DNA from: an uncultured bacterium
Lineage (GTDB): Bacteria > Patescibacteriota > Microgenomatia > Levybacterales > UBA12049
Direction: 5' to 3'
NCBI GenBank assembly: GCA_963826535.1
Contig: CAWGXL010000010.1
Location: 42,814 to 106,813, forward strand
Length of the DNA: 64,000 nt
Shown: positions 536 to 55,988 of the stretch, one piece after another
Layout of the letters: every line of letters starts with the position of its first letter
Numbering within the stretch: the first letter of the stretch is position 1
Translations under genes and position numbers: made by a program
Notes under the pieces: generated by a model
What the model was told of the DNA's origin: nothing
Seen by the model: the letters and a program-made list of their open reading frames with translations, nothing else
The model's database searches: none

Positions 536-576
536 ATCTCCCAACCCCCTTTACTAAAGGGGGCGAAGGGGGATTT
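536..576. repeat. Short variant of the nested palindromic element (copy 1 of 3), intergenic
   Basis: atctcccaaccccctttactaaagggggcgaagggggattt shares the CCCCCTTTAyTAAAGGGGG core and the ...GGGGGATTT arm with the copies at 20565 and 24399. Confidence 0.6.
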
Positions 577-5870: not shown

Positions 5871-5872
5871 TT

Positions 5873-6151
5873 ATGGAAAGAACATGTAAACGCTGCGGAG
5901 CCAAATTTAAGATGATCAAGCAGGAGCTTGAATTCTATAAGGAAATGGGACTCCCTCATCCTGATAATTGCCCGACATGTAGACAGGAACTCCGCGAAGC
6001 AATGCGTAATGAAAGAAAATTCTATAAATATCCCTGTGCCAAATGCGGCAAAGACATGGTAACAACCCATAACCCCGATAAAAAGTTAATCGTTTATTGC
6101 ATCCCCTGTTATACGGAGTTTCGCAACACCGTAGACCTGACAAAAGAGTAA
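5873..6151 (+). CDS. Double zinc-ribbon protein (4 x CxxC)
   Basis: CKRC...CPTC and CAKC...CIPC pairs in 92 aa; starts 3 nt after the ATPase stop and ends immediately before the first Cys-rich paralog. Confidence 0.6.
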   Translation: MERTCKRCGAKFKMIKQELEFYKEMGLPHPDNCPTCRQELREAMRNERKFYKYPCAKCGKDMVTTHNPDKKLIVYCIPCYTEFRNTVDLTKE

Positions 6152-7042
6152 ATGACCTTTCTCCAAAAATACGAGCTTCTGAAGAAATCCATTCCAGTCC
6201 CTGCTATGGCAAATGACACACAATCTATCGGTTGTGAATACTCAGATGGGATGGTTGCAAGTAAAAACTGTTTCTTCTGTGAGGGAGGCTGGCAGGAGGA
6301 TTGTATTTATGCTCATTTCTCTCCTTTTAATAATAAAGTTGTAGATAGTCTACATACGTCTAATTCGGAAAAATGTTTTATGTGTGTTAATTGCGACAAG
6401 TGTCATAGCTCTACATATTTAATTGATTGTGTTAGCTGTACTGATTGCCATTTCTCTGCCTTATTAAGCTCATGTACCGATTGCTTCGGCTGCGTTGACC
6501 TAACCCGCAAAAAATATTGTATTTTTAATAAACAATTTACTAAGGAAGAATATTTTAAAAAAGTTGAGGAATTAAAAAAAGAAAAACCGGAAAGTATTCT
6601 TAAGCAAATGTTTGAGATAAAAAAGAAAGTGCCACATCCGGCAAGTCAACAATTCAATAATGAAAATTGTCTATATGGCAATCATATGTATAATTCAAAG
6701 AATTGTTTTTGGGCTTTCAATAGTTGGACTAGCGAAGATTCTGGATACATTTTTAATTGCCCTTCAGTCGTAAATTGTTGGGATCAACATAGGGTTTCTC
6801 ATAGTGAGCGCTGCTATGAGATGGTCCAATCGCCCTATAATTATGAGTGCGCATTTCTATTTGATTGCGAAAGGTCTAAAAACTGCTTTTATAGTACAAG
6901 GCTTATAAACTGTACCGATTGTTTCGGCTGTGTGGCTTTAAAAAATAAAAAATATTGCATTTTAAATAATCAACTATCCAAAGAGCAATACGAAAAAGCA
7001 GTAATAGTGATTAAAAAAGAATTAGGCTGGCAAATATCGTGA
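6152..7042 (+). CDS. Cys-rich repeat protein, paralog 1 of 4 (unassigned family)
   Basis: About 12% Cys; N-terminus MTFLQKYELLKKSIP; repeated C-x2-C-x2-S-x2-L units; each half ends CFGCV(D/G)L..KKYCI(F/L)N.Q(F/L/Y)(T/S)KE(E/Q)Y; C-terminal IKKELGWQIS. Confidence 0.7.
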   Translation: MTFLQKYELLKKSIPVPAMANDTQSIGCEYSDGMVASKNCFFCEGGWQEDCIYAHFSPFNNKVVDSLHTSNSEKCFMCVNCDKCHSSTYLIDCVSCTDCHFSALLSSCTDCFGCVDLTRKKYCIFNKQFTKEEYFKKVEELKKEKPESILKQMFEIKKKVPHPASQQFNNENCLYGNHMYNSKNCFWAFNSWTSEDSGYIFNCPSVVNCWDQHRVSHSERCYEMVQSPYNYECAFLFDCERSKNCFYSTRLINCTDCFGCVALKNKKYCILNNQLSKEQYEKAVIVIKKELGWQIS

Positions 7043-7073
7043 TAACCCATGTTACCTGCTATAATATTGAACA

Positions 7074-7982
7074 ATGACTTTTCTTGAGAAATTCGAACTC
7101 CTGAAAAAATCAATCCCTATCCCGTCTGTAATTGCCAGCTCCTCTGTTGACTGCGATTATACTGATTTTGTCGATCGATGCAAGAATTGCTACTATTCCT
7201 TCGATGCGTATTATCTTGAAAATAATATATATACATATTATGGAGCATATAACAAAATGTTATTAGATTGTCATGGAATGGGTGAATCGGAAAAATGTTA
7301 TGAAAGCGTAGATTGCACAAAGTGCCACAGCTGTACCTATTTAATAAACTGCAATGGAAGTAGTGACTGTCATTTTTCAGCCTACTTAAACTCATGCAGT
7401 GATTGCTTCGGGTGTGTTGATTTAACTCATAAAAAATATTGCATATTTAACCGTCAATATACAAAGGAGGAATACTTCAAAAAAATTGAAGAGCTAAAAA
7501 CAGAAAATCCAAAGAATTTACTAGAGCAAATGTCAGATCTCGAACGAAAGTTGCCGCATCCTGCAACTTACCAATCCAATAGCGAAAATTGTCCATACGG
7601 TAATAATATTTATAATTCAAAGAATTGTTTTTGGTCTTTCAATACATATTATTTTGAAAACTCGGGCTATTCTTATTATGTATCATACGCAAAGAATTGT
7701 TGGGATGTCTCTGAATTTGGAGGAAACCCGGGAGTAAAAACAATTTCGGAGAGATGTTATGAGAATTTAAATACAGAGACTTGTTACGATTGCGCGTTTC
7801 TTGTGTCAAGCAAAAACTGCACAAACTGCCACTACAGTGACCAGCTAATAAACTGTTCCGACTGTTTCGGTTGCGTAGGGTTAAAAAGTAAAAAATACTG
7901 TATATTAAACAATCAACTTACAAAAGAACAATATTCACAAGCCCTAAAAGAAATCAAAAAAGAACTTGGGTGGAAGACTTAG
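7074..7982 (+). CDS. Cys-rich repeat protein, paralog 2 of 4
   Basis: Aligns along its full length with paralog 1 (MTFLEKFELLKKSIP..., CFGCVDLTHKKYCIFNRQYTKEEYFKK, ...IKKELGWKT). Confidence 0.7.
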   Translation: MTFLEKFELLKKSIPIPSVIASSSVDCDYTDFVDRCKNCYYSFDAYYLENNIYTYYGAYNKMLLDCHGMGESEKCYESVDCTKCHSCTYLINCNGSSDCHFSAYLNSCSDCFGCVDLTHKKYCIFNRQYTKEEYFKKIEELKTENPKNLLEQMSDLERKLPHPATYQSNSENCPYGNNIYNSKNCFWSFNTYYFENSGYSYYVSYAKNCWDVSEFGGNPGVKTISERCYENLNTETCYDCAFLVSSKNCTNCHYSDQLINCSDCFGCVGLKSKKYCILNNQLTKEQYSQALKEIKKELGWKT

Positions 7983-8011
7983 CAATTATTAATTTTTCTC
8001 TAAATTTAAAT

Positions 8012-8917
8012 ATGAACTTTCTTGAAAAATATGCACTCCTCAAAAAATCCATTCCAGTTCAGGCTGTTTCGGTGCGTTCATCTGTAGATTGTGAATATGC
8101 AGATATCGCCGTAAGTTGTAAGAATTGCTACTACTGCTTCGATTGTTACAAGTTAGAAGGTGGAATGTATACAAATTTCGGCTGGGGGAATAAGTTGGTG
8201 GACTGTCGTTCAGTGATAGAATCAGAAAAATGCTATCAATCTGCGGATTGCAACAAATGCCATAGCTCTACTTACCTTTTTGATTGTAATAGCAGCACAG
8301 ATTGTCATTTCTCCGCTTTTTTGAACTCTTGTGCCAATTGTTTTGGTTGTGTAGGTTTAACACATAAAAAATTTTGTATTTTGAACACTCAATATACCAA
8401 AGAAAAATATCAGGAAAAGTTGGAAGAATTAAAGAAGGAAAACCCTGATAAGCTAATTAAGCAAATGTTAGATTTGAAACAAAAGATCCCGCATCCCGCT
8501 AGTCAGCAGTTCAATTCCGAAAATTGCCCTTATGGTGACTATATGTATGATTCAAAAAATTGCTACTGGGGTTTTTTGATAAATTATTCTGAAAACTCCG
8601 GCTATATTTATGAGAGTGGTACTATGAAGAACTGCTGGGATGTCTTTTTCTCAGGTGGTAACTACAGCCAAAAAACTTTCTCAGAGCGCTGTTATGAGAA
8701 TGTTAATACTGATACTTGCTACGACTCAGTATTTCTAAAAGATAGTGAAAATTGCACGAACTGCTATTATAGTGAAAATATCTTAAACTGTTCCGACTGC
8801 TTCGGTTGTGTAGGACTAAAAAATAAAAAATACTGTGTGCTAAATAACCAACTAACCAAAGACCAATTTACCCAAGCTCAAAAAGAAATCAAGAAAGAGC
8901 TTGGATGGAGGATTTAA
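8012..8917 (+). CDS. Cys-rich repeat protein, paralog 3 of 4
   Basis: The track ORF starts at 7970, but the conserved N-terminus MNFLEKYALLKKSIP begins at ATG 8012; ends ...IKKELGWRI; overlaps/abuts neighbours. Confidence 0.65.
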   Translation: MNFLEKYALLKKSIPVQAVSVRSSVDCEYADIAVSCKNCYYCFDCYKLEGGMYTNFGWGNKLVDCRSVIESEKCYQSADCNKCHSSTYLFDCNSSTDCHFSAFLNSCANCFGCVGLTHKKFCILNTQYTKEKYQEKLEELKKENPDKLIKQMLDLKQKIPHPASQQFNSENCPYGDYMYDSKNCYWGFLINYSENSGYIYESGTMKNCWDVFFSGGNYSQKTFSERCYENVNTDTCYDSVFLKDSENCTNCYYSENILNCSDCFGCVGLKNKKYCVLNNQLTKDQFTQAQKEIKKELGWRI

Positions 8918-8921
8918 TACT

Positions 8922-9827
8922 ATGACATTTCTTGAAAAATACGAACTATTGAAAAAATCTATTCCTGTTGCCGCAGTATCAAATGATTTAAATACAGTTA
9001 ACTGTGAATACATAGACTATGTTTATCAAAGTAAAAATTGTTATTACTGCTTCGATTCAGTAGAGATTGAAGATTGTATTTATACAATAATGGCTAGGGG
9101 AAATAAACTTATAGACTGCACCTCTGTATTCGAATCAGAAAAGAGTTATATTTGTATAGATTGCACGAAGTGTTATAACTCTACATATTTATTAAAAAGT
9201 AATAATTCTACTGATTGCCACTTCTCTGCTTTTTTAAATTCATGCACCGAATGTTTCTGCTGCGTCGGACTAACTCATAAGAAATATTGCATTTTTAACC
9301 GTCAATACTCCAGGGATGAATATATAAAAAAAGTAGAAGAATTAAAAAACGAGAACCCGGAAAAGATTCTCGCCCAAATGATCGAATTAAAACAAAAAGT
9401 TCCTCATCCTGCTAGCCAACAACTTAATAGCGTTGGGTGTCCGTATGGTGATGGTATAGATAACTCAAGAAGCAGTTATTGCTCTTTTAACGTTACCAAT
9501 ATTGAAAACTCCGGCTATATTTATTTAAGTAGTAATATCAAGAATAGTTGGGATATTTATTTTACCGGTGGTACAGGTACAAAAACTTTTACAGAACGAT
9601 GTTATGAACTTGTGGATTGTGGGTTTAGTTATAATAGCGCATTTCTCTACAATTGCATAGATTGTACAAATTGTTATTACGGTTTAAGTCTTACACACTG
9701 TTCTGATTGCTTCGGTTGCGTTGGGTTATCAAAAAAGAAATACTGCATATTAAATAACCAACTAACCAAAGACCAATACAATATAGCCATAAATGAGATT
9801 AAAAAAGAGCTCGGCTGGAAATCTTAA
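8922..9827 (+). CDS. Cys-rich repeat protein, paralog 4 of 4
   Basis: The track ORF starts at TTG 8901, but the conserved N-terminus MTFLEKYELLKKSIP begins at ATG 8922, 4 nt after paralog 3's stop; ends ...IKKELGWKS. This is the most divergent copy (CFCCVGL variant). Confidence 0.65.
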   Translation: MTFLEKYELLKKSIPVAAVSNDLNTVNCEYIDYVYQSKNCYYCFDSVEIEDCIYTIMARGNKLIDCTSVFESEKSYICIDCTKCYNSTYLLKSNNSTDCHFSAFLNSCTECFCCVGLTHKKYCIFNRQYSRDEYIKKVEELKNENPEKILAQMIELKQKVPHPASQQLNSVGCPYGDGIDNSRSSYCSFNVTNIENSGYIYLSSNIKNSWDIYFTGGTGTKTFTERCYELVDCGFSYNSAFLYNCIDCTNCYYGLSLTHCSDCFGCVGLSKKKYCILNNQLTKDQYNIAINEIKKELGWKS

Positions 9828-9865
9828 CTTGCATTTTCGGGTAAAAAGGTGTAAATTCAGGCCGT

Positions 9866-10561
9866 ATGCCAAGCCATGAAGGATTAAGTATAGGTGAACA
9901 AGCAGCAAGATTTAGCGTTGGTAAACACTACCTGCCTGATAACGGACAGATTAGAATTGAAAGAAAAAAAGTGGAACAATTCCTACCACTCCCTCCAGTA
10001 GGTCATACTGCGAAAGCTGAAGCTAGTCATGCAGTTCTTGCTTTAGAGACCGGTACAGATGTGGAAGAGGTCTCGGTAATTCCTGGACCAGGTTATAATG
10101 GTATAACAAAATTAGCTCACTATAATGGAATTGCAGCAGCAGCACACATAGATGAAGGCGGAGGAGCGTTTGATGCTTTTGTGATTGAATCACAGGGAGA
10201 TAGTGTATCAGCAATGAAAAGTATTGCTAACGGTATAAAAGCGCGTAAAAGTGAAGAAATACATATTGTTGCTCATCATTTGGAGAAGAAAAAGCCGACA
10301 CTAAGTGGTGGTGAGGTAGTAAATGTAATAGAAGTCTTTCATGCGAAAAAGAAAAAGGCTGAAGAAGCTAAGAATAAAGCTACGGCACACATTAAAGACC
10401 GAGATGGATTTGAACACGTAATAAAAAATCTACCAATTGAGAATGGTAATGTTGAACTGCCTGCTAAAGTGATTGATATTTTTTCAAGAAGAGAATATAA
10501 CATTTCCCGAAAAACCTTGCCACCGCCGGCAAATTCTGATATATTTGACGTCGCTGCATGA
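9866..10561 (+). CDS. Hypothetical protein (Ala/Gly/Lys-rich)
   Basis: 231-aa ORF 39 nt downstream of the Cys-rich array; no recognised motif. Confidence 0.4.
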   Translation: MPSHEGLSIGEQAARFSVGKHYLPDNGQIRIERKKVEQFLPLPPVGHTAKAEASHAVLALETGTDVEEVSVIPGPGYNGITKLAHYNGIAAAAHIDEGGGAFDAFVIESQGDSVSAMKSIANGIKARKSEEIHIVAHHLEKKKPTLSGGEVVNVIEVFHAKKKKAEEAKNKATAHIKDRDGFEHVIKNLPIENGNVELPAKVIDIFSRREYNISRKTLPPPANSDIFDVAA

Positions 10562-11785: not shown

Positions 11786-11888
11786 TGTCATTCCGAGCGA
11801 CCAAAGGGAGTCGAGGAATCTCATACCACCTTAGCTACTAATTGGGGTGAGATCCCTCCACTACGCTATCGCTTCGGTCGGGATGACA
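11786..11888 (+). mobile_element. MITE-like repeat, type 1, copy A (TIR TGTCATTCCGAGCG / CGGTCGGGATGACA)
   Basis: Near-identical to the reverse complement of 13837..13938, including the internal GAGTCGAGGAATCTCATACCAC...GGTGAGATCCCTCCACTACGC; fills the spacer between convergent genes. Confidence 0.75.
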
Positions 11889-13836: not shown

Positions 13837-13938
13837 TGTCATCCCGACCGAAGCGAAGCGTAGTGGAGGGATCTCACACCAATGAGTTGCTTAAGTGGTA
13901 TGAGATTCCTCGACTTCCGTTGGTCGCTCGGAATGACA
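13837..13938 (-). mobile_element. MITE-like repeat, type 1, copy B (inverted relative to copy A)
   Basis: tgtcatcccgaccgaagcg...ggtatgagattcctcgact...gctcggaatgaca; the reverse complement matches copy A. Confidence 0.75.
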
Positions 13939-13955: not shown

Positions 13956-15821
13956 TTATTCTATCAGCTTTTTCACTTTCGCAACAATTTGTTTCGCGCT
14001 GATACCGGCGGCGTCTAAAAGTTCCTCAGATTTGCCCGATGAAGAAATTTTTGTCACAGCTATTTTTTCAACATGAGCGCCGGTGTTTGAAAGGCTAGAT
14101 AAAACGAAATCGCCCAAGCCTCCGTGCTCATAATGATCTTCAACGGTAATTACAGTTTTTTGTTTTGTTTCCCTCAGACTCTGCTTTAATGTTTTTGAAT
14201 CTATTGGTTTAATACAGTAGCAATCGATAACTCTGATATTTACCCCATCATTTTTAAGTGTGTCATAAGCCTTTAACGCTTCAAAAACGGTAATACCCGC
14301 AGCTACCACGGACAAAACGTCTTTTTGAGATTTTTTGAGAATTTTTGAACCCCCTATTGAAAAATTTTCATTTGTTTCATATAAAACAGGAGTCTTAGGA
14401 CGAAGAGTGCGTAGATAAGTAATTCCATCATAATTTGCGATCAGAGGTATAACTTTGGCCGTTGATACGGCATCTGACGGATGAAATATGATTGAGTCCG
14501 GAATCGCTCCAAAGATCGCAAAATCTTCAAGTGCCATTTGCGATGGCCCGTCTTCACCGATTGAGACACCAGCGTGAGAACCAATGAATTTTAAATTGGC
14601 GCGACCAATTGAGGCCATTCTGACTTGATCAACTGCGCGTGTTAGAAACGCGGCAAATGTAGAAACAAAAGGAATTTTCCCAAGGCGTTGTAAACCAACC
14701 GCGAGCCCAACCATATTCTGCTCGGCAATAAAACACTCAATAAAGCGGTCTGGTAGAACTTTCAAGAATTCCTGACTATAAGTGGAATTTTTTACTTCCG
14801 CATCAAGCGCGTATATATTCTTGTTTAATTCGCCTAATTTAGCTAACGCCTGTCCATAAACCTCCCGTGTCGCATGTTGCTGATCTTTTGAAAAATTAAT
14901 TTTTAAATTTTCGGGTGACTTTATTTTTTTTGTAAACTCCAATTTTTTGGGCTTTTTTAAACTGAACTTCAAATTATCATTAACTTTACCCAGCTCCATT
15001 AGCGCTTTGTCTAGCTCTTCTTTTTTTAGAGGCTTACCGTGCCAGCTATCTTTATTTTCTATAAAAGAAATGCCGCGGCCTTTGAAAGTCCTGGCAATTA
15101 TCACGAATGGCTTGCCTGTACCTGCCCGTCCGGCAGGCGGGTTATTTTTTACAGCCTGCGAGAACGCGCGGTCGACTTCGAATAAATTATTTCCGTCAAT
15201 AGCAATTGCTTCAAATCCAAAAGCTTTGAACCGGCTGATATATTCTTCCAAGTGGTGACCGAACATGGTCTCCTGGCTTTGACCGAGACGGTTAATATCT
15301 GCGATAGCAATGAGATTATCCAATTTATTCAAACTCGCAAAATTAGCGGATTCCCAAACCTGTCCTTCAGCTAATTCTCCATCACCTAAGAGTACGTATG
15401 TTTTATATGGTAAATTTTCCCGCTTAGCAAGTAAGCTTAAACCTGCTCCGATAGATAGGCCTTGTCCCAGTGAGCCGGTAGCAGCTTCCGCATATGGATA
15501 TTTCGCCGGAGTTGGATGCCCTTCAAGTCGGCTGCCAAATTTTCGGAGAGTTTTTAGTTCTTCAAGCGGATACGCCCCAGCCATAGCAAAAAGTGTATAT
15601 AAAAGTGGAGATGCATGGCCTTTTGAAAGTATAAACCTGTCGTTATAAAGATTAAGTGGATTTTTCAAGTCATAAGTAAAATATTTATCAAAAAGAACTG
15701 TACACAAATCTGCAGCAGATAAACAAGAAGTTGGATGACCTGAACCAGCCTCAGTAGTTGAAACCAAACACCATTTACGGACTAATTTAGCTTTTTCGAG
15801 TAATTCTTTTTGATTAAACAT
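13956..15821 (-). CDS. tkt: Transketolase
   Basis: N-terminal TPP-binding region (GSGHPTSCLSAADL, GHASP), 621 aa, with typical pyrimidine-binding and C-terminal domains. Confidence 0.9.
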   Translation of the reverse strand: MFNQKELLEKAKLVRKWCLVSTTEAGSGHPTSCLSAADLCTVLFDKYFTYDLKNPLNLYNDRFILSKGHASPLLYTLFAMAGAYPLEELKTLRKFGSRLEGHPTPAKYPYAEAATGSLGQGLSIGAGLSLLAKRENLPYKTYVLLGDGELAEGQVWESANFASLNKLDNLIAIADINRLGQSQETMFGHHLEEYISRFKAFGFEAIAIDGNNLFEVDRAFSQAVKNNPPAGRAGTGKPFVIIARTFKGRGISFIENKDSWHGKPLKKEELDKALMELGKVNDNLKFSLKKPKKLEFTKKIKSPENLKINFSKDQQHATREVYGQALAKLGELNKNIYALDAEVKNSTYSQEFLKVLPDRFIECFIAEQNMVGLAVGLQRLGKIPFVSTFAAFLTRAVDQVRMASIGRANLKFIGSHAGVSIGEDGPSQMALEDFAIFGAIPDSIIFHPSDAVSTAKVIPLIANYDGITYLRTLRPKTPVLYETNENFSIGGSKILKKSQKDVLSVVAAGITVFEALKAYDTLKNDGVNIRVIDCYCIKPIDSKTLKQSLRETKQKTVITVEDHYEHGGLGDFVLSSLSNTGAHVEKIAVTKISSSGKSEELLDAAGISAKQIVAKVKKLIE

Positions 15822-16978: not shown

Positions 16979-17090
16979 TGTCATTCCCCTGGACAGGGGA
17001 ATCCAGAAGATATAAATAATTCTTCCTTATTAAGCAATAAGAGGAATAGACTTTTTTTACCTACTGGATTCCCGCGTTCGCGGGAATGAC
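16979..17090 (+). mobile_element. MITE-like repeat, type 3 (TGTCATTCCCCTGGACAGGGGAATCC ... GGATTCCCGCGTTCGCGGGAATGAC)
   Basis: Terminal hairpins share the TGTCATTCC/GGAATGAC ends with types 1 and 2; the track ORF 16981..17223(-) across it is spurious. Confidence 0.6.
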
Positions 17091-17128
17091 GATTATCAGT
17101 GTAACAGGAGTTAAGAAGAAATTTAAAT

Positions 17129-18121: not shown

Positions 18122-18194
18122 AAACTTGAAGAGTATAATACCTGAGCGTTGCAATCATCTTGTAACAATTCACAGTTATGACACAATTTTGTTA

Positions 18195-18259
18195 TCGTGA
18201 TCCCGATTTAATCGGGAGTGGAGATCAATAAAGATTGTTTCCCCCGCTGAGCGGGGTCG
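18195..18259. repeat. Partial MITE-like copy (right end ...GTCGCAATGACAT, CCCCGCTGAGCGGGG hairpin)
   Basis: Right TIR resembles type 2 (ctcgcaatgaca); the ccgctgagcgg hairpin also occurs at 39172 and 45468. Confidence 0.4.
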
Positions 18260-18350
18260 CAATGACATGTTTATGTTAGAAGTGAGAACAGTTACTCATT
18301 TGATAATTTTTGCAAAATGAGTGTGTAGTGGTATATAATATAGTCCTGTT

Positions 18351-19956: not shown

Positions 19957-21486
19957 TTAGAGAATACTGGATAGGGCGGATTTACTGCGGAGTTTCTTGT
20001 GGTAGGTTATGGCGAAGCGATGTGCTTCGTCCCGGATGCGCATAATTAAATGGAGAGAAGGGGAGCTTTTGGGAAGTGAAATTTCTTGATAATGCTCTCC
20101 CTCTTTTGTCATTGCGAGCGAACGAAGTGAGCGCGGCAATCCTGCCCGATTATTTGTCAATTTTTCTTTTAATAGAGATTGCTTCGTCTCCTCCATCCGG
20201 CGGATCCTCGCAATGACAGGAACTATTATTGTCTCTTCTCTCTTGGCCAATCCAATCAGGGGTATATTCATATTATTTTCTTGTAAAACTTTAAGCGCTG
20301 CTGATACCTGCCCCTTGCCCCCGTCAACGATTATTAAATCAGGCAAGTCCCATTCAGTATGTTTTAGTCTCCGCGTTATCACTTCTTGCATCATTGCAAA
20401 ATCATTTGGTTTGCCCGATATTCGAATTTTAAATTTACGATATTGCGAACCCTCTTTTTCACCGTTTATAAATACCACCATTGACCCCGTCGCATTTGTG
20501 CCTTGTGTATTGGAGATATCATAACACTCAATTCTGTTTAGTTTTTTCATATCCCCCCAACTCCAATCCCCCAAGCCCCCTTTATTAAAGGGGGTGTCCG
20601 AAGGACGGGGGATTTTTGCAGCATCCGGAAGCAAAGTTGATTCTTGAATATTCTGGGCAGTGGGAATTTTGTGAGTTTGATTCAATGCTTCCATCAACCC
20701 ATTTAATTCCTGTTGTCTTAGGTCCGCGCGGAGATTAGGATTTGTATCATATTCAAAAGGCGTGTGGATTGGTGTTGTTATTAAACCAAGTGCATCTATT
20801 TTTTTCTGGATTTTAAGCGCTTCTTCAAAGTTCTCGTACTTACTTAATTTATCACGCTCTTTTTCCAGCTCACCCATTATTTTTCGGGACTGACCTTCTA
20901 ATATACGAATAATATTGCGGATAGTCTTTTTATAATCTTTAGCCGCCTCCACCGAATCAAAAACCTGTGGACATGGACATAAACCCAGGTGATTATATAG
21001 GCAAATTCGCTTAGAGTGATTTAGAGCTGAAACATAAGGAAAAACACGTCGGATTGTTTTGAGCACCAACCGTACAGAAGAAGTACTTGGATATGGGCCA
21101 AAATAGATTGCCTTGCTATCTTGCTCTAGTCTAGCCAAAGTAATACTTGGATATTTATCTTTTATAGTAATCTTAATTCGGATATATGATTTGTTATCTC
21201 TTAAAGTTATATTATATTTTGGCTGGTATTTTTTAATATAATAGGCTTCGAGAAGTAAAGCTTCCAGCTCTGATTCAACGACGGTTATTTTTATCTTTTT
21301 TATTTGCGAAACAAGCACCCGGGTTTTGTCACCTAAATCTTTGTTAATATAATACGAAGAAACTCGCGCTTTCAGATCGTTGGCTTTTCCAACATAAAGT
21401 ACAATATTACCTGCGTCTAAAAATCTGTAGACGCCCGCTTTTGAGGGCAATGATGAGTATGATAATACAGAGTATACCAATTCCAA
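19957..21486 (-). CDS. uvrC: Excinuclease ABC subunit C, carrying two in-frame repeat insertions and lacking the C-terminal HhH region
   Basis: GIY-YIG domain (GVYRFLDAGNIVLYVGKANDLKARVSSY), UvrC core, EAHRFAI motif; the ORF ends about 20 aa after EAHRFAI; the start is probably downstream of the track TTG at 21486. Confidence 0.8.
   Translation of the reverse strand: MELVYSVLSYSSLPSKAGVYRFLDAGNIVLYVGKANDLKARVSSYYINKDLGDKTRVLVSQIKKIKITVVESELEALLLEAYYIKKYQPKYNITLRDNKSYIRIKITIKDKYPSITLARLEQDSKAIYFGPYPSTSSVRLVLKTIRRVFPYVSALNHSKRICLYNHLGLCPCPQVFDSVEAAKDYKKTIRNIIRILEGQSRKIMGELEKERDKLSKYENFEEALKIQKKIDALGLITTPIHTPFEYDTNPNLRADLRQQELNGLMEALNQTHKIPTAQNIQESTLLPDAAKIPRPSDTPFNKGGLGDWSWGDMKKLNRIECYDISNTQGTNATGSMVVFINGEKEGSQYRKFKIRISGKPNDFAMMQEVITRRLKHTEWDLPDLIIVDGGKGQVSAALKVLQENNMNIPLIGLAKREETIIVPVIARIRRMEETKQSLLKEKLTNNRAGLPRSLRSLAMTKEGEHYQEISLPKSSPSLHLIMRIRDEAHRFAITYHKKLRSKSALSSIL
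20107..20218 (+). mobile_element. MITE-like repeat, type 2 (TIR TGTCATTGCGAGCG.../...CTCGCAATGACA), inserted in-frame in uvrC
   Basis: The reverse complement translates without stops to PVIARIRRMEETKQSLLKEKLTNNRAGLPRSLRSLAMT, which is residues ~420-459 of the UvrC ORF, between the conserved GLAKREE and RDEAHRFA segments. Confidence 0.7.
20565..20615. repeat. Nested palindromic element, copy 2, in-frame in uvrC
   Basis: aatcccccaagCCCCCTTTATTAAAGGGGGtgtccgaaggacGGGGGATTT; read on the minus strand it encodes ...DTPFNKGGLGDWSWGD within UvrC. Confidence 0.7.
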
Positions 21487-23257
21487 TTCCTCCTCCGACC
21501 GTCCACCATTTTTTAATAAGTAATGGGGAAATATCGATTGTTTGCGTTAATGTCTGATTGCTTACACGTATTGTAAAACTCTTTATTTTATTTGTCAAAA
21601 AAGGTTCTTTCTTAAATGAAACGTTTAGACTTGCTGACCCAAAAGGAGGAATTAGGGGTACATTGAGTATTTGTTCACTAGGAGAAAGTTTGGATGATGA
21701 AATTGTTAATACCTGTGGAGATAATAGGCTTTGGCTGGCATTCTTTATTGTGATTTTACCTTTAATCGGTAAAGCAGCCATCGCATGTTTTGGCAGAGAC
21801 GAAATAATATCAAAATTAGCATCAATCGGGGGCGTGTTTTGACTGAAGTCAACCGAGACATCTTTGGTATATTTATCTGAAATAAATTTGTATCCTCCGG
21901 CAGGAATTGGGTAATTGCTATCCATTCCTTTTATAACAAAAGCAAAGTGATCAAAATCAAGTGTTGAGAAATAATCAATTCCACCTGTTGTACTTCCCCA
22001 CGTCGGATCAACCATAATCCATGTTTTTTTCTGATCATCATAATATTCCGGCCAGGCATGCAGAATATCCTTGACTAAAGAAAGAGGCCGTTGTTTGGTA
22101 TTTTGAGTGTAGGCGAATCCGTCAACTTCACGGGCTGGGATCCCGGCTGCACGGGCTAAAGCTATGAATAGATCGGTATACTCCAGGCAAACTGCGGAAT
22201 CGGGATTTTTCAACGCATTTAGAGCTCCTAAGCGGGGCTTGTCCTCCGTTACTCTTGTAAAGTCATATTTTAGTGCTTTAATTACAAATTTGTAAATTGC
22301 GTCCGGAGTTTTTAGCTCCTGTGCTAGTTGTTTTAATTCATTTGAATCTGCCTGCCAATATGGTTTTTCTTCCAGATATTTAATTCTGGACTCCTGCGAT
22401 AATTCTTCCGGCATGGGATTAAGCAGTATTTCTGCTTTACCATCAACAGTTACATCCATTTTTTGCGATGGCCCAAGATTAAAACTGGCAAGCCAATTTT
22501 TATCTTTATCAAGTACAACATTCTCGGGCAAAGGGCGAATGTCTTGAATAAAGACATTTTGATAGTTTGTCGTTGGGGGTATAGCAATTTCTGTTTTTAC
22601 AGGATAGAGATTATCATTTTTTATATGATAGGTAAGATGAAAAGAATAAATTTGCTTGTCGCCAAAGGAAATCGAAATACCGGATTTTCCAAGTTGTTTT
22701 TTATCAAAGACAAGACTTTCAAAAGAATTGACCTGCCTGCCGGCAGGCAGGTAGGGTTTAGTGTATGCCGGCTTACCAAAAGACGGCGGGACTTTAATTT
22801 CAACAGCAAATGTATCAAATTCGTCAGGATTTGATATTCCCGGTACATTAATTTCCCAGATTTTCCCGTATTGTTTGGCTACATCAGGGGTATCAAAAGT
22901 AATAGTAAAGTCTAATTTCTTACCTTGCCCTGGGGCTTTTTTGTTGAATGTTAAATTTATAATATATCCATCATCATTTTTTTCTATAACCGGATTTATT
23001 TTTCCGTCAGGATCAACGGCCGAAATATTGGTAATATTATCAAAACCCACCTGAATTTTATAAGAAGACGCGTAATACTCTGAAGTCTTATTAGTCAAGC
23101 TCACTTTTAAAGTGGCATGAGTTATTCCACTGGTCGCAGTTGAGTAAGTAACATTATAATCAGTGATAAAGTTGGAGGCAGCGGAAACAGGATACCGAGC
23201 AGATATTAAGAAAAAAGATACTATTATTGCAATTAAAAATGTAATTTTACTAAACAT
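21407..23257 (-). CDS. Transglutaminase-like cysteine protease domain protein, secreted, C-terminal TM anchor
   Basis: N-terminal signal peptide, transglutaminase core (CLEYTDLFIALARAAGIPAREVDGF), C-terminal hydrophobic anchor plus RRR tail; the 3' end overlaps the annotated uvrC start by ~80 nt. Confidence 0.65.
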   Translation of the reverse strand: MFSKITFLIAIIVSFFLISARYPVSAASNFITDYNVTYSTATSGITHATLKVSLTNKTSEYYASSYKIQVGFDNITNISAVDPDGKINPVIEKNDDGYIINLTFNKKAPGQGKKLDFTITFDTPDVAKQYGKIWEINVPGISNPDEFDTFAVEIKVPPSFGKPAYTKPYLPAGRQVNSFESLVFDKKQLGKSGISISFGDKQIYSFHLTYHIKNDNLYPVKTEIAIPPTTNYQNVFIQDIRPLPENVVLDKDKNWLASFNLGPSQKMDVTVDGKAEILLNPMPEELSQESRIKYLEEKPYWQADSNELKQLAQELKTPDAIYKFVIKALKYDFTRVTEDKPRLGALNALKNPDSAVCLEYTDLFIALARAAGIPAREVDGFAYTQNTKQRPLSLVKDILHAWPEYYDDQKKTWIMVDPTWGSTTGGIDYFSTLDFDHFAFVIKGMDSNYPIPAGGYKFISDKYTKDVSVDFSQNTPPIDANFDIISSLPKHAMAALPIKGKITIKNASQSLLSPQVLTISSSKLSPSEQILNVPLIPPFGSASLNVSFKKEPFLTNKIKSFTIRVSNQTLTQTIDISPLLIKKWWTVGGGIGIGILCIIILIIALKSGRLQIFRRR

Positions 23258-23261
23258 GAAT

Positions 23262-23400
23262 TAAAATCAAAAATCCAAAATTACAAATTCCAAATAAATT
23301 CAAATATTTAAATTCAAATATCAAAACATGTTTTGGATTTAATTATTTGAATTTTGATATTATTTGTAATTTGGTGCTTTGAATTTGTAATTTATAGATC
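23262..23400. promoter_or_regulatory. ~130 bp AT-rich imperfect palindrome centred on a perfect CAAAACATGTTTTG, between uvrA (3' end) and the transglutaminase-like gene (5' end)
   Basis: aaatccaaaattacaaattccaaata...tcaaaacatgttttggatttaat...ttgtaatttggtgctttgaatttgtaattt; the arms share AAATCCAAAA/TTTTGGATTT and ATTACAAATTC motifs. Confidence 0.4.
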
Positions 23401-23405: not shown

Positions 23406-26339
23406 CTATTTTAATACATTCTTGAGGAATTTGCCTGTCCAAGAGTTGGGGTTAGCAGCAATTTCTTCGGGTGTGCCGGTTGCTACAACTTGTCCTCCTT
23501 TTTCTCCTCCTTCAGGACCTAAGTCAATAATGTAATCGGCATTTTTTATTACATCTAAATTATGTTCAATAACAATGACCGAATTACCAAGACTTACTAA
23601 TCTTTGTAATACATATAATAATTTTTCCAGATCAGCAAAGTGCAAGCCTGTAGTTGGCTCATCCAATATATAAAGGGCATCCCCGCCTTTTTTCGAAAGT
23701 TCAGCAGCAAGTTTGACTCTCTGGGCTTCTCCCCCTGAAAGTGTTGGAGCGGCCTGACCCAACTTGATGTAGGATAGGCCCACATCATTAAGCGTTGCCA
23801 GCCTATGCGTTAGTCCGGGAATATGCGCGAAGAAATTTAAGGCTTGTGTTACGCTCATATCCAGTACATCGGCAATATTTTTATTATTAAATAATATCTC
23901 TAACGCTTCATTGTTATATCGTTTCCCCCGGCAAACTTCGCATGTTACATAAACGTCAGCAAGAAACTGCATTTCAATTTTTATTTGACCCTCTCCTTGG
24001 CATCCCTCACAACGGCCGCCTTTTACATTAAAGGAAAATCTACCCGGACCATAGCCACGCAGTTTTGCCTCTTTTGTAGCAGCAAAGAGACTACGGATAT
24101 AGGAAAAGGCACCGGTATATGTAACACAATTACTCCTTGGTGTCCGACCAATAGGCGATTGGTCGATAGCAAAGACATGCCTCACATTCTCATGTCCCTG
24201 AAGTCCAATAAATTTACCCGCCTTTTGCGGGTGGAACGAGTTTTTTAATTGCATTAAGGCATGGAAAAGAATATCGTTTACCAGAGTTGATTTTCCGCTG
24301 CCTGAGACGCCCGTTACTACGACTAATTTATTTAAAGGGAAATCAACAGTAATCTTTTTAAGATTATGCTCTGAAGCTCCAATTAGTTTTAGGAATTTAA
24401 ATCCCCCGTCCTGCGGGACACCCCCTTTATTAAAGGGGGTAAGGGGGATTTCTTTTGCTTCTGATTTATTTATTTGTATTTTCTTTCTTCCCGACAAATA
24501 AGCACCGGTAATAGAATTTTTATTTTTCTTAATTTCCGCAATAGTTCCCTGCGCAACGATTTTTCCTCCATCTTCACCCGCTCCGGGTCCGAAGTCAAAA
24601 ATATAATCTGATTCTTCCATGGTTTCCTGGTCATGTTCAACGACCAATATTGTGTTTCCCAGATCCCGAAGCTTTTTAAGCGTCAGAATTAATTTAGAAT
24701 TGTCCCGTTGATGCAATCCAATAGACGGCTCATCCAGAACATACAAAACTCCGGTTAATCCGCTACCTATTTGTGATGCAAGGCGAATTCTTTGTGCTTC
24801 ACCTCCGGCCAAAGAAGCGGCTCCGCGGGCTAAAGTCAAGTATTCAAGCCCGACATCTATTAGAAAGCTTAAACGCTGTCGTATCTCACGCAAAATCATT
24901 TTGCCTATATCCTGTTCTCTTTTTGAAAGCACTGCGTTTTCTAGGCTGTCGATAAATTTGAGCGCCTGATCAATAGGAAAATTTGCAACATCTACTATAG
25001 ATTTATCATATATAGTAACCGCCAGTGCCTCTTTTTTAAGTCGTGCCCCATTGCAGCGCGGACAAATATCAAAACGCATAAATTTATCGATTTGGGTTCT
25101 GATAAATTGCGAGTCGGATTCATTATAGCGATTCTTGAGCTCATGATTAATGCCGCGAAACGGCTCATAAATTTCAGTTGTGCGCCCCCAGCGGTTTTCT
25201 CCTTCAACCCGGTATTCTTTTTTTCCTGTTCCGTAAATCAACAAATCTTTTTTTTCTTTGGGTACATCACTTAATTTTGTACTAAGCGGGACATCGTTCT
25301 CCTTACAGAAAGTTTTAAAAGTACGCGAAAACCAAGTGTCGCTCTCTGTCAAATTAAAAAATGGCAAGACCCCACCTTCGTTAATTGTCATTTTGTTATT
25401 GAATACCAAATCCCTGTCAACATTTAGTACCCGGCCCAAGCCGGCGCAATCCGGACATGCTCCATGAGGTGTGTTAAACGAGAAAATTCTAGGTTCAATT
25501 TCCGGAAGGGAAATGTTGCAAACAGGACAGGCAAACTTTTCGGAGAATAGTTGGTCTTCCATTTCCTTAGGCTTTTCCGGTAAATTGAACGAAGAATCTT
25601 GTATTATAGAGACAATCATTTCACCATCGCCATACTGTAATGCCTGCTCAACATCGGTGACAATACGGATCCGGTCTGTATCTTTTGTAAGCACTAAGGA
25701 ATCAATAATTACTTCGATCGTGTGCTTGTTTGTTTTAATAAGCACAAGCTTTTCATCAAGAGTAAAGACCTCTCCATCTATTCTTACCTTGCGGTATCCG
25801 CGCTTTTTCAAACTATTAAATAATTCCGTATACTCACCTTTCCTGTCTTTGACCACTGCTGCCATAAGCATAATACGCAGGTCTGCCCGTCCGGGCATTT
25901 TATGTTTTTTTAACATGTCAAATATAGTATTGGCGATTTGTTCTTTAGACTGACGGGCTATCTCACGCCCGCAATTTGGACAATGCGGATGGCCAATGCG
26001 CGCGAAAAGCAAACGAAGATAGTCATAAATTTCCGTCACCGTACCGACAGTTGAACGGGGATTATGACTTGTTGATTTCTGATCAATGGATATAGCAGGA
26101 GACAAGCCTTCAATAAGATCAATATCCGGCTTTTTCATCGTCCCCAAAAATTGGCGCGCATAAGATGAAAGACTCTCCACATAACGGCGCTGCCCCTCCG
26201 CGTATATTGTGTCAAAAGCAAGTGAAGATTTCCCGCTCCCGGAAAGCCCGGTCAAAATAACCAGCTTATTTTTAGGAATCTCCATGTCAATATTTTTGAG
26301 ATTATGTTCCCGAGCGCCTTTGATAACGAGTTTATCCAT
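23406..26339 (-). CDS. uvrA: Excinuclease ABC subunit A, with an in-frame palindromic-element insertion
   Basis: Two ABC ATPase modules ([23 protein letters not shown]; [13 protein letters not shown]) and zinc-finger CxxC pairs; 977 aa. Confidence 0.9.
24399..24452. repeat. Nested palindromic element, copy 3, in-frame in uvrA
   Basis: AAATCCCCCgtcctgcgggacaCCCCCTTTATTAAAGGGGGtaaGGGGGATTTc; encodes [16 protein letters not shown] in UvrA, in the linker before the second ABC module. Confidence 0.7.
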
Positions 26340-35972: not shown

Positions 35973-36035
35973 GATCGTAATAATTGCAGTCTTTCATAGT
36001 GAAAGGCTGAGGCAAGTATAAGGCACATTTCGTGA

Positions 36036-36082
36036 TTTGTCAAGAACAAAACAGTAGAACAAGAAATTCTGTTCTTGACAAA
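36036..36082. promoter_or_regulatory. Palindromic operator overlapping divergent sigma70-type promoters (TTGACA-17-TATAAT toward lexA-like; TTGACA-17-TATACT toward the minus-strand operon)
   Basis: TTTGTCAAGAACA-aaacagtagaacaagaaat-TGTTCTTGACAAA; the right arm contains TTGACA (36075-36080), 17 bp before TATAAT (36098-36103) and ATG 36116; the left arm (rc) gives TTGACA, with TATACT (rc of 36015-36020) 17 bp away toward the gene at 35972. Confidence 0.6.
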
Positions 36083-36115
36083 CATCAAGTCCTGCCCTAT
36101 AATATAACTTATAGT

Positions 36116-45449: not shown

Positions 45450-45559
45450 TGTCATTCCGAGCGGACCCCGCTCAGCGGGGGGAGTCGAGGAATCTCATGT
45501 CACTGATTTACAAGAGAAATAAAGTGGTATGGGATCCCTCCACTTCGGTCGGGATGACA
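45450..45559 (+). mobile_element. MITE-like repeat, type 1, copy C
   Basis: tgtcattccgagcggaccccgctcagcggggggagtcgaggaatctcat...gggatccctccacttcggtcgggatgaca. Confidence 0.7.
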
Positions 45560-55854: not shown

Positions 55855-55988
55855 TGTCATTCCGAGCGGAGCGATAGCGGAGTCGAGGCGACTCCACGAA
55901 GTGGATAGTGCCCTTGTGGTGAATCTCATACCACTGATATTTAAACATAAGATCCCTCCACTCGTCTGCGGACTCGGTCGGGATGACA
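55855..55988 (+). mobile_element. MITE-like repeat, type 1, copy D (longer variant)
   Basis: tgtcattccgagcggagcgatagcggagtcgaggcgactccacgaagtgg...gaatctcataccactg...gatccctccactcgtctgcggactcggtcgggatgaca. Confidence 0.7.

What the first reader, a model, noticed from the sequence alone, without database searches (positions are those of the whole stretch)
20107..20218. A complete MITE-like element (with both inverted-repeat ends) is inserted in-frame inside uvrC
The 112-bp element with TIRs TGTCATTGCGAGCG.../...CTCGCAATGACA lies entirely inside the uvrC reading frame. Its reverse complement translates without stops to PVIARIRRMEETKQSLLKEKLTNNRAGLPRSLRSLAMT. This adds ~38 residues between the conserved GLAKREE and RDEAHRFA segments. 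The element belongs to the same TGTCATT(C/G)C-ended family that sits in intergenic spacers elsewhere in the window. This is the Rickettsia-palindromic-element style of gene colonisation, seen here in a different lineage and element family.
Basis: seen in the sequence. Interest (0 to 1): 0.7.

Follow-up and report, generated by a model that had tools for sequence, protein, structure and literature searches.

The report
Palindromic repeat translated inside uvrC gene
A 112-bp selfish palindromic DNA repeat sits in-frame inside the DNA-repair gene uvrC of a candidate-phyla-radiation bacterium and is read as 37 extra amino acids on a surface loop; this is real, but the same kind of event is already known from Rickettsia and other bacteria.

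Summary
Window 20107-20218 is a 112-bp palindrome with perfect 12-bp ends (TGTCATTGCGAG/CTCGCAATGACA). It lies inside an intact uvrC (19957-21486, minus strand) and adds residues V424-T460.

The insert sits at the tip of a beta-hairpin in the RNase H-like nuclease domain, in a loop that is 3 residues long in Thermotoga UvrC and 9 in many orthologs.

It is better described as a head-to-head pair of TGTC-tagged REP-like units than as a classical MITE. I found no target-site duplication, no matching transposase and no consistently linked gene.

These are the hallmarks of the "CGTC/TGTC-tagged REPs" of Di Nocera et al. 2013, which include Rickettsia RPE-4/RPE-6. That paper already reports such repeats in-frame in uvrA/B/C. 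The unit geometry here (5-bp stem, 12-27-nt interior) fits none of the four published families.

What is new:
- The host lineage (Patescibacteria).
- Exact copies of the same ends occur in more than ten phyla and in some viral contigs.
- The same UvrC loop has been colonised repeatedly in orthologs, by single units, dimers and decayed remnants.
- This uvrC carries a second repeat family in another loop, and uvrA carries that family too.

A cross-phylum link to uvr genes seen in one sample did not replicate in a second.

The parts
20107..20218 (-). The 112-bp palindromic element: a head-to-head dimer of two TGTC-tagged units. It is translated within uvrC as V424-T460 (VIARIRRMEETKQSLLKEKLTNNRAGLPRSLRSLAMT).
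20175..20218 (-). Unit 1, first in gene orientation: TGTC + ATTGC + 27-nt interior (with its own mini-hairpin ATCCGCCGGAT) + GCAAT + tail CTC.
20144..20174 (-). AT-rich spacer between the two units; it forms the loop of the whole palindrome.
20107..20143 (+). Unit 2, inverted relative to unit 1: TGTC + ATTGC + 20-nt interior + GCAAT + tail CCT.
19957..21486 (-). Host gene uvrC (509 codons from a TTG; the public record aa). It has GIY-YIG and RNase H-like nuclease domains and no (HhH)2 domain. All family-invariant residues are present.
20565..20614 (-). Second in-frame insert in the same uvrC, from another repeat family (F2: ATCCCCC-GTCCnnnGGAC-CCCCCTTTAnTAAAGGGGG-GGGGGAT). It is read as IPRPSDTPFNKGGLGD inside the extra segment at about aa 271-312.
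24400..24451 (-). F2 copy in-frame in uvrA (ORF 23406..26339), read as [16 protein letters not shown] in the linker before the second ATPase module.
536..574 (.). Intergenic F2 copy.
11786..11888 (.). Intergenic head-to-head dimer of the sister type (units TGTC-ATTCC...GGAAT-CTC and TGTC-ATCCC...GGGAT-CTC), between convergent genes.
13837..13938 (.). Intergenic head-to-head dimer of the same sister type.
16979..17091 (.). Intergenic head-to-head dimer with the published CGTC-1 geometry: TGTC-ATTCCCCT-GGAC-AGGGGAAT-CCA and CGTC-ATTCCCGC-GAAC-GCGGGAAT-CCA.
   Evidence: definition from PMC3733652.
18190..18267 (.). Degenerate intergenic copy (TGTTATCGTGA...TCGCAATGACA).
45450..45559 (.). Intergenic head-to-head dimer, sister type.
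55855..55988 (.). Intergenic head-to-head dimer, sister type, between divergent genes.

Best explanation
The 112-bp segment is a non-autonomous, REP-like selfish palindrome. It is a head-to-head pair of units, each made of a TGTC tag, a stem starting ATTGC, a variable interior, the closing GCAAT and a 3-nt tail.

Shown: it lies in a naturally length-variable surface loop of the RNase H-like endonuclease domain of UvrC. The reading frame is kept (37 added codons, no stop). The gene is otherwise fully conserved.

Inferred: the element is transcribed and translated as part of UvrC, where it forms a protruding and probably helical excursion that the enzyme tolerates. Selection has acted as a filter. 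Only copies whose net length keeps the frame, and whose reading frame gives a harmless peptide (the V-I-A...A-M-T frame), survive inside genes.

Shown in orthologs: the same loop has been colonised several times in related Patescibacteria, by single units, dimers and other unit families. Some copies have decayed into ordinary loop sequence.

Inferred only: spread happens through a hairpin/single-strand mechanism that leaves no target duplication, as proposed for REPs and HUH-type (RAYT-like) enzymes. The enzyme is unknown.
For: - Anatomy and significance.
- Intact UvrC: both domains are present and every invariant column of a 120-sequence alignment is kept, including D323, D362, D388 and H489.
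- Insert position: query residues 422-466 correspond to 3 residues in 2NRT and 18 in 8B0Q.
- AlphaFold: core pLDDT above 90; the insert forms helices 426-442 and 452-458 at pLDDT 50-73, between paired strands 419-424 and 465-470.
- Orthologs at DNA level: L001 has a complete 76-bp dimer with the same 12-bp ends and the same frame, 3 codons downstream. Syntenic L002 has a single unit at the identical junction CC|TGTCATTGCGAGG.
- Core-only tree: insert-bearing and 9-residue-loop orthologs are interleaved. Entry points differ by 0-5 codons, and other unit types occupy the same loop.
- Family properties: no target-site duplication or target motif in 136 copies; no linked gene family; no Rfam family; both strands fold equally well; arms combine as homo- and heterodimers.
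- Same phenomenon elsewhere: the UvrA linker and a transketolase loop of related genomes, and UvrA, UvrB and other proteins in other phyla.
- Published precedent: tagged REPs in-frame in uvrA/B/C, read as VIPAKAGI...IPAFAGMT (PMC3733652).
Against: - There are no expression data, so translation of the segment is inferred from the open frame and the conservation of the rest of the gene.
- The nearest ortholog is only 64-70% identical. No empty site at nucleotide resolution is available, so the insertion event and its exact boundaries cannot be reconstructed.
- The copy keeps perfect 12-bp ends. It may be recent and mildly harmful rather than neutral.
- The strong bias to one reading frame (V-I-A) in UvrC and UvrA orthologs is attributed to selection on the peptide, but this was not tested.
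- The mobilising enzyme is unknown.
Confidence: 0.8

Rival explanations
1. It is a classical MITE: a deletion derivative of an insertion sequence, moved in trans by a DDE transposase that recognises the terminal inverted repeats.
For: The element is short, non-coding on its own, has perfect 12-bp terminal inverted repeats beginning TG...CA, and has multiple copies. A DDE (rve) transposase gene is present in the window at 38082-38948.
Against: Direct flank identity is at chance level for k = 1-9 in 136 copies, so there is no target-site duplication. The window's IS has ends TCCGTAGAAATCCGACA / TGTCGGATATTTACGGA, which share only TGTC with the element. No transposase family recurs in 120 loci carrying the element. 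The element is built from two self-contained tagged units that also occur singly.
Confidence: 0.05
2. The repeat is in uvrC, and others in uvrA/uvrB, because of a specific functional or mechanistic link with nucleotide excision repair. Examples would be modulating repair or mutation rate, or preferential integration at these loci, rather than mere tolerance.
For: - All three genic copies of the two larger families in this window are in uvrC or uvrA, which make up about 8% of its coding DNA.
- In L002 the two genic units are in uvrA and uvrC.
- In 120 genome loci from other phyla, 2 elements are inside uvrA/uvrB and 2 lie 100-130 bp upstream of uvrC, against roughly 0.25-0.5 expected.
- Di Nocera et al. 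argued that hits in repair genes are not fortuitous.
Against: - An independent sample of 120 metagenome loci showed no element in or next to a uvr gene, and only one uvr gene overall, as chance predicts.
- A transketolase loop in related genomes carries the same kinds of inserts.
- Short hairpins sit in transketolase, a transglutaminase-like protein and a reductase/dehydratase-like ORF (SDR and FabA-like Pfam domains).
- Per residue, UvrA is no richer in rare inserts than transketolase.
- The first-sample test was post hoc.
Confidence: 0.1
3. The insert is not a recent arrival. It descends from one ancient insertion in the ancestor of this UvrC clade, later lost or decayed in most lineages and kept 'fresh' here by gene conversion from other genomic copies.
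For: - The identical junction CC|TGTCATTGCGAGG occurs in the window and in syntenic L002.
- Several orthologs in different clades start the insert directly after the same proline.
- One clade (P0010/21/27/48) keeps a recognisable but decayed insert.
- All use the same reading frame.
Against: - Entry points differ by up to 5 codons, and different unit families (RHSG...ARMT, VIPAK...) occupy the loop.
- Insert-bearing sequences are interleaved with minimal-loop relatives. The window's nearest neighbours in the tree (P0008, P0099) have short loops without recognisable units.
- Interiors and lengths of the full copies differ: 112 bp vs 76 bp, with different right-arm frames.
Confidence: 0.2
4. The open frame is an artefact (assembly or sequencing error), or uvrC is a pseudogene split at this point.
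For: None found.
Against: The ORF runs uninterrupted for 509 codons with all invariant residues. The identical protein is on record from a 494-kb contig. Analogous in-frame inserts are seen in many independent assemblies, and P0042 occurs in two assemblies.
Confidence: 0.02
5. The segment is removed after transcription or translation (intron, intein or translational bypass), so the mature UvrC lacks it.
For: The segment forms a strong hairpin in the mRNA.
Against: At 112 nt it is far too small for a group I or II intron, and Rfam finds nothing. The 37-residue peptide has no intein-like ends (it starts with V, ends with T, and is followed by K). It is in-frame without stops, so bypass is not needed. 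Decayed remnants persist as ordinary loop sequence in orthologs.
Confidence: 0.01

Closest known systems
CGTC/TGTC-tagged REPs (Di Nocera, De Gregorio and Rocco 2013, BMC Genomics 14:522; includes Neisseria dRS3 and Rickettsia RPE-6 = CGTC-1, RPE-4 = CGTC-4)
   Same: - A (C/T)GTC tag at the outer end, a stem beginning with AT and a 3-nt tail.
- Mostly head-to-head dimers with 20-100-bp spacers.
- No dedicated transposase.
- Mostly intergenic, just 3' of genes.
- A minority lie in-frame in genes, notably uvrA/B/C, polA, dnaE2 and truB.
- Dimers are read as V-I-x-A...A-M-T.
- One window copy (16979-17091) has the exact CGTC-1 geometry.
   Different: - The uvrC element's units have a 5-bp perfect stem and a 20-27-nt interior (12-20 nt typical across phyla), not an 8-9-bp stem with a 4-5-nt loop.
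- The tail is mostly CTC/CCC rather than CCA.
- The paper did not cover Patescibacteria, Chloroflexota, Planctomycetota or Bacillota, where this family occurs.
- I could not see the paper's Figure 2 consensus sequences.
Rickettsia palindromic elements, RPE-1 type (Ogata et al. 2000, 2002; as summarised in PMC10969869)
   Same: Palindromic repeats of about 100-150 bp inserted in-frame in unrelated housekeeping genes, encoding a recurrent peptide, judged compatible with protein fold and function. No target duplication or transposase is known for them (my own knowledge).
   Different: Different sequence family and host (obligate intracellular alpha-proteobacteria). Sequence similarity to RPE-1 was not tested here. 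The present family is spread over many phyla.
REPINs / GTAG REPs mobilised by RAYT tyrosine transposases
   Same: Two inverted REP units form one long hairpin. There is a tetranucleotide tag next to the hairpin foot and no target duplication.
   Different: The tag is TGTC, not GTAG. No RAYT/Y1 transposase was found among the window's annotated ORFs or recurrently near the elements. REPIN families are usually species-specific, whereas this one keeps identical 12-bp ends across phyla.
Bacterial MITEs that create in-frame fusions (Coxiella QMITEs, ERIC, Correia/NEMIS)
   Same: Short, non-autonomous, TIR-bearing elements that are occasionally read through in-frame within ORFs.
   Different: MITEs have target-site duplications and a cognate IS. 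Neither is found here.

Membership tests
CGTC/TGTC-tagged REP superfamily (PMC3733652) | Unpaired (C/T)GTC tetranucleotide at one end of each unit | tested here: met
   Both units of the uvrC element begin with TGTC. Across phyla, 268 of 286 units carry TGTC and 18 carry CGTC. The paper states that CGTC is 'changed to TGTC' in many repeats.
CGTC/TGTC-tagged REP superfamily (PMC3733652) | Stem with complementary A-T residues in the first and second positions | tested here: met
   ATTGC...GCAAT in the uvrC copy; ATTCC/ATCCC/ATTCCCCT in the other window copies.
CGTC/TGTC-tagged REP superfamily (PMC3733652) | Stem of 8-9 bp and loop of 4-5 nt (families CGTC-1 to -4) | tested here: not met
   The uvrC units have a 5-bp perfect stem and interiors of 20 and 27 nt. 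In the cross-phylum set, 281 of 286 units have no pairing beyond 5 bp and interiors are mostly 12 or 18-20 nt. The feature is met only by the intergenic copy at 16979-17091 (8-bp stems, 4-nt loops).
CGTC/TGTC-tagged REP superfamily (PMC3733652) | Short unpaired 3-nt tail, consensus CCA | tested here: inconclusive
   A 3-nt tail starting with C is present: CTC and CCT in uvrC; across phyla CTC 47%, CCC 16%, CCA 5%. This fits the position and partly the composition, but not the consensus.
CGTC/TGTC-tagged REP superfamily (PMC3733652) | Predominantly head-to-head dimers (tags outside), homo- or heterodimers, spacer 20-100 bp | tested here: met
   All window elements are head-to-head pairs. There were 147 head-to-head dimers against 62 unpaired heads in loci that were, however, selected for containing a dimer. 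45% are heterodimers. Single units exist in L002 uvrC and uvrA.
CGTC/TGTC-tagged REP superfamily (PMC3733652) | No dedicated transposase nearby | tested here: met
   No protein family is shared by more than 7 of 120 loci, and the top clusters are generic (histidine kinases, glycosyltransferases and so on). The window's only transposase has unrelated ends.
MITE | Terminal inverted repeats | tested here: met
   12-bp perfect TIRs.
MITE | Target-site duplication flanking the element | tested here: not met
   Direct flank identity is at chance level for k = 1-9 in 136 copies. There is none at the uvrC copy...GTTCC|T...A|AAAGAG.
MITE | A related autonomous insertion sequence with the same ends | tested here: not met
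   None was found in the window or in 120 loci. The rest of the source genome could not be searched.
Rickettsia palindromic elements (RPE) | Palindromic repeat inserted in-frame in functional genes, encoding a recurrent peptide at a surface position | tested here: met
   The recurrent peptide frame is VIA(R/S)...KQS / ...LAMT or ...RND.
Rickettsia palindromic elements (RPE) | Sequence similarity to an RPE consensus (RPE-1 to RPE-10) | not tested
   No RPE consensus sequences were available in the tools. Only the link RPE-4/6 = CGTC-4/1 is taken from PMC3733652.
REPIN/RAYT system | GTAG tag and a cognate RAYT (Y1/HUH) gene flanked by the repeats | tested here: not met
   The tag is TGTC. No Y1_Tnp hit appears among the window ORFs scanned or as a recurrent neighbour. 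The rest of the genome was not testable.
Structured RNA family (Rfam) | Match to a curated covariance model | tested here: not met
   Only tRNAs were found in the window and in 17 loci carrying canonical copies. Both strands fold equally well.

The most novel reading that the evidence does not exclude
The TGTC-ATTGC palindromes may be a single REP-like family that spreads horizontally across more than ten bacterial phyla and into phage contigs, keeping identical 12-bp ends with no linked enzyme. On this reading, their repeated appearance inside or just upstream of uvrA, uvrB and uvrC, from Patescibacteria to Proteobacteria, Chloroflexota and Bacteroidota, reflects a real mechanistic or selective link with nucleotide excision repair. 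For example, hairpin repeats might dampen the repair system that would otherwise act on them, or these loci might be preferred integration sites. The alternative is passive tolerance of inserts in flexible loops.
Probability: 0.1. Interest if true: 0.75.

Novelty: new member of a known kind. Interest (0 to 1): 0.4.

Why it matters
It extends 'protein-coding palindromes' from Rickettsia and a few Proteobacteria to the Patescibacteria (CPR). These are bacteria with tiny genomes, where one would expect little room for selfish DNA inside conserved genes.

The ortholog series shows the whole life cycle at one protein loop: empty loop, single unit, dimer, decayed remnant. It is a ready-made natural experiment on how mobile repeats create new protein segments.

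Practically, such inserts inflate and distort CPR protein alignments and generate many spurious 'hypothetical proteins'. Typical repeat-encoded peptides are VIARSEATKQS, LRSLAMT, ARNDG and PFNKGG. Recognising the family helps annotation.

The very wide distribution of identical ends without any known enzyme is an open mechanistic question.

Tried and rejected
- **Rfam.** Searches of the window and of 17 loci with canonical copies returned only tRNAs.
- **Strand-specific RNA structure.** Both strands fold equally well, so there is no sign of it.
- **Target-site duplication or target motif.** None found.
- **Linked mobilising gene.** All-against-all BLAST of 2797 ORFs from 120 loci gave only generic families.
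- **The window's rve transposase as autonomous partner.** Rejected, because its ends are unrelated.
- **GC-island scan for further inserts.** Too unspecific in a 38% GC genome.
- **Elements in L038/L045 lying inside full-length uvrC before the (HhH)2 domain.** Rejected; they lie upstream of the start codon.
- **uvr enrichment across phyla.** Suggestive in the genome sample but not replicated in the metagenome sample.
- **NER-specific enrichment within CPR.** The control protein transketolase also carries such inserts.
- **Source organism name.** Look-ups for the source record and organism name returned nothing.
- **Literature.** I found no description of this family or of REPs in CPR. The Ogata 2002 paper is not held.
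- **Long stop-free frames across elements in GC-rich genomes.** Most proved to be chance ORFs without Pfam domains.
Full report
**Observation**

Window 20107-20218 reads TGTCATTGCGAG...CTCGCAATGACA. The two 12-nt arms are perfectly complementary and 88 nt apart. The 112-nt segment folds at -40.7 kcal/mol, z = -3.9, and none of 200 shuffles folds as well. The end motif (TGTCATTSCGAG, up to 1 mismatch) occurs 7 times in the window against 0.25 expected.

The segment lies inside ORF 19957..21486 on the minus strand (509 codons). Pfam identifies the protein as UvrC, with a GIY-YIG domain and the UvrC RNase H-like endonuclease domain.

The element runs from the third base of codon 423 to the last base of codon 460. 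GTC...ACA is exactly 37 codons.

**Is it an insertion into a working gene?**

Aligned to solved structures, residues 422-466 correspond to 3 residues of Thermotoga maritima UvrC and 18 of the Deinococcus enzyme.

A search of the large protein collection returned the same protein from a 494-kb contig, then orthologs of at most 65% BLAST identity. They are 412-528 aa long and named by their sources as Levyibacteriota, Roizmanbacteria or Patescibacteria. The window (38% GC) is therefore from a Microgenomates-type CPR bacterium.

In a 120-sequence alignment the query keeps every invariant residue. These include the acidic and histidine residues of the C-terminal nuclease (D323, D362, D388, H489) and the GIY-YIG core. 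Many orthologs have only 9 residues in this loop.

AlphaFold gives mean pLDDT 83 with core blocks above 90. It places the insert as two helices (426-442 and 452-458, pLDDT 50-73) at the tip of a beta-hairpin formed by strands 419-424 and 465-470.

The gene therefore looks functional, and the extra segment is a surface excursion. An assembly artefact or pseudogene is very unlikely, also because analogous in-frame inserts occur in many independent assemblies.

**What the element is**

The other copies in the window are intergenic: 11786-11888, 13837-13938, 16979-17091, 18190-18267, 45450-45559 and 55855-55988. They share the ends but not the interior.

A formal scan shows that every one of them, and the uvrC copy, is a head-to-head pair of units. 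Each unit consists of a TGTC (once CGTC) tag, a stem starting with AT, an interior, the complementary stem and a 3-nt tail (13 units against 3.6 in shuffles).

The copy at 16979-17091 is TGTC-ATTCCCCT-GGAC-AGGGGAAT-CCA paired with CGTC-ATTCCCGC-GAAC-GCGGGAAT-CCA.

This is the architecture that Di Nocera, De Gregorio and Rocco (2013, PMC3733652) defined for CGTC-tagged REPs:
- The tag is often changed to TGTC.
- The stem is 8-9 bp and begins with AT.
- The loop is 4-5 nt.
- The tail is about CCA.
- The units are mostly head-to-head dimers.
- There is no dedicated transposase.

Members include Neisseria dRS3 and Rickettsia RPE-6 and RPE-4.

The uvrC element is a dimer of TGTC-ATTGC...GCAAT-C(T/C)(C/T) units. 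Its stem is only 5 bp and its interiors are 20 and 27 nt. It shares the hallmarks of the superfamily but not the geometry of the four published families.

**Family-wide properties**

The hosts include Bacteroidota, Chloroflexota, Planctomycetota, Cyanobacteria, Alpha-, Gamma- and Deltaproteobacteria, Bacillota, Verrucomicrobiota, Gemmatimonadota, Omnitrophota and several CPR groups. 32 viral contigs also carry it.

All copies share a modular plan: outer stem, variable segment (often its own mini-hairpin), inner stem CG(A/T)(A/G)GCAATC(T/C)C, and loop.

Other properties of the family:
- There is no target-site duplication and no target motif.
- No protein family recurs next to it.
- Rfam has no model for it.
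- Both strands fold equally well.
- The two arms combine almost freely as homo- and heterodimers.

The only transposase in the window (rve type, 38082-38948) has unrelated ends. A classical MITE is therefore not supported. A REP-like element moved by an unknown mechanism that leaves no duplication is the best description.

**History at the uvrC loop**

At DNA level, ortholog P0042 (L001) has a complete 76-bp dimer with the same 12-bp ends and the same reading frame, 3 codons further downstream. The syntenic ortholog P0013 (L002) has a single complete unit at exactly the same junction as the window, CC|TGTCATTGCGAGG.

On a core-only tree, the loop states are interleaved with orthologs that have a minimal 9-residue loop:
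- Full dimers: window, P0042, P0055, P0071, P0031.
- Single units: P0004, P0013, P0023, P0062, P0026, P0039, P0080, P0056.
- A decayed but recognisable insert: clade P0010/21/27/48.
- Other unit types: RHSG...ARMT in P0014, P0032 and P0087; VIPAK... in P0075.

Entry points differ by 0-5 codons. This indicates repeated colonisation of one permissive loop, with some copies fixed and decaying. An older shared insertion for the subset with the identical junction cannot be excluded.

Nearly all copies are read in the V-I-A frame. I attribute this to selection on the encoded peptide, without a test.

**Not an isolated case**

The same uvrC carries a second in-frame insert, from a different GC-rich nested palindrome (20565-20614, read IPRPSDTPFNKGGLGD). 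It lies in the linker before the nuclease domain and is predicted disordered. That family has 3 copies in the window, seen as 12 overlapping strand and offset matches against 0.33 expected. One is intergenic and one is in-frame in uvrA (24400-24451, [16 protein letters not shown]), where Geobacillus UvrA has a gap.

Among 120 UvrA orthologs, that linker holds at least a dozen repeat-derived inserts, for example:
- P0203 VIARKNDEAIS...LAPRNDE
- P0179
- P0173
- P0194
- the window's own copy

A control protein, transketolase, also has a loop with such inserts (P0255, P0261, and the window's PPAGRAG). UvrC has about 5-8 times more rare inserts per residue than either UvrA or transketolase. Colonisation is therefore general in this lineage, and UvrC is an especially tolerant host.

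**The NER question**

Di Nocera et al. already noted that intragenic REPs lie strikingly often in uvrA/B/C/D, recBCD, polA, dnaE2 and truB. Their supplementary table lists a CGTC-1 unit in R. conorii uvrC and two units in uvrB, and dimers read VIPAKAGI...IPAFAGMT.

In my genome sample from other phyla, the verified in-frame copies were in:
- UvrA (L009)
- UvrB (L063)
- a truB/cytidylyltransferase junction (L063)
- a PAS-GAF-HD protein (L092)
- an O-antigen ligase (L028)

. Two further elements lie 100-130 bp upstream of uvrC (L038, L045).

That makes 4 of 133 elements in or next to uvr genes, against roughly 0.25-0.5 expected. But the test was post hoc. An independent sample of 120 metagenome loci showed none, with one uvr gene in 661 kb, as chance predicts. 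I therefore treat a specific NER link as possible but unproven (about 0.1).

**Comparison and verdict**

The phenomenon is known: RPEs (Ogata 2000, via PMC10969869), intragenic tagged REPs including in uvr genes (PMC3733652), and in-frame MITE fusions in Coxiella.

The new elements are:
- The host lineage. No paper in the searchable library links REPs or MITEs with CPR.
- The ATTGC-stem unit type, and its distribution over many phyla with identical ends.
- The clear series of states at one loop.

I rate it a new member of a known kind, of moderate interest.

Noticed in passing
window 20565-20614 (uvrC), 24400-24451 (uvrA), 536-574 (intergenic): A second repeat family, a GC-rich nested palindrome (ATCCCCC-GTCCnnnGGAC-CCCCCTTTAnTAAAGGGGG-GGGGGAT). 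Two of its three copies are in-frame in NER genes, read as ...PFNKGG... Orthologs P0003 and P0042 carry PLEKGG/PFIKGG at the same UvrC linker.
   Followed up: partly
window 15121-15137, 22732-22751, 50953-50969: Three short hairpins CCTGCC-N(2-8)-GGCAGG, with about 0.003 expected by base composition. All lie inside ORFs: transketolase (PPAGRAG), a transglutaminase-like protein (LPAGRQV) and an SDR/FabA-like ORF (GPAKRAG). The same LPAGRQ signature appears in inserts of UvrC and UvrA orthologs (P0070, P0229).
   Followed up: partly
window 19957-21486 and all 120 orthologs: This UvrC family ends right after the RNase H-like domain and lacks the C-terminal (HhH)2 domain present in the solved UvrC structures. 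A UVR-domain Pfam hit is recorded for only a few members.
   Followed up: partly
window 36032-36736, with inverted repeat 36017-36051/36067-36101: A LexA homolog (LexA_DNA_bind + Peptidase_S24). A 35-nt imperfect inverted repeat containing CAAGAACA...TGTTCTTG spans its start and may be an autoregulatory SOS box.
   Followed up: no
window about 38040-38972, next to tRNA genes 37250-37943: A small insertion sequence with an rve/rve_3 DDE transposase (38082-38948) and 17-nt inverted repeats TCCGTAGAAATCCGACA / TGTCGGATATTTACGGA. It sits beside a cluster of four tRNA genes and is unrelated to the TGTCATT repeats.
   Followed up: partly
window 3567-10561: A type IV secretion coupling-protein-like gene (TrwB_AAD_bind) is followed by five ORFs with no Pfam match. 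This may be a CPR conjugation-like or T4SS cluster.
   Followed up: no
window 18242-18256, 39170-39184, 45466-45480: A mini-hairpin (C)CCCGCT(G/C)AGCGGG(G) recurs. Two copies are nested in the variable arms of TGTCAT elements and one stands alone in an intergenic region. Similar nested mini-hairpins fill the variable arms of copies in other phyla.
   Followed up: no
window 23264-23386: A 55-nt AT-rich imperfect inverted repeat (75% complementary) lies in the spacer between the transglutaminase-like gene and uvrA.
   Followed up: no
L009 2834-2922; L063 781-890 and 3181-3314; L038 1570-1661; L045 5008-5093: In other phyla the same element lies in-frame in UvrA and UvrB, bridges truB and a cytidylyltransferase-like ORF in one open frame, and sits 100-130 bp upstream of uvrC in a Chloroflexota and a Bacteroidota genome. 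The excess near uvr genes was not reproduced in a second sample.
   Followed up: yes
(homologs of window 13956-15821): Beyond roughly the 30 closest hits, the best transketolase homologs (65-67% identity) are named Chitinophagales or Flavisolibacter (Bacteroidota). This hints at lateral transfer of this gene between CPR and Bacteroidota.
   Followed up: no
window 45582-48797: A single 1071-aa ORF combines biotin carboxylase domains with carboxyltransferase (Carboxyl_trans, ACCA) domains, an unusual fused acyl-CoA carboxylase. It lies upstream of a cluster of fatty-acid/polyketide-type genes (48794-59805).
   Followed up: no
UvrC orthologs, alignment position after query residue 359: A third hot loop in UvrC. 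P0076 (VIARKHDEAI...LPRSARND), P0061, P0100 and P0043 carry repeat-derived inserts there. About 15 others share a conserved KPxTKAEK...KHL segment of unknown origin.
   Followed up: no
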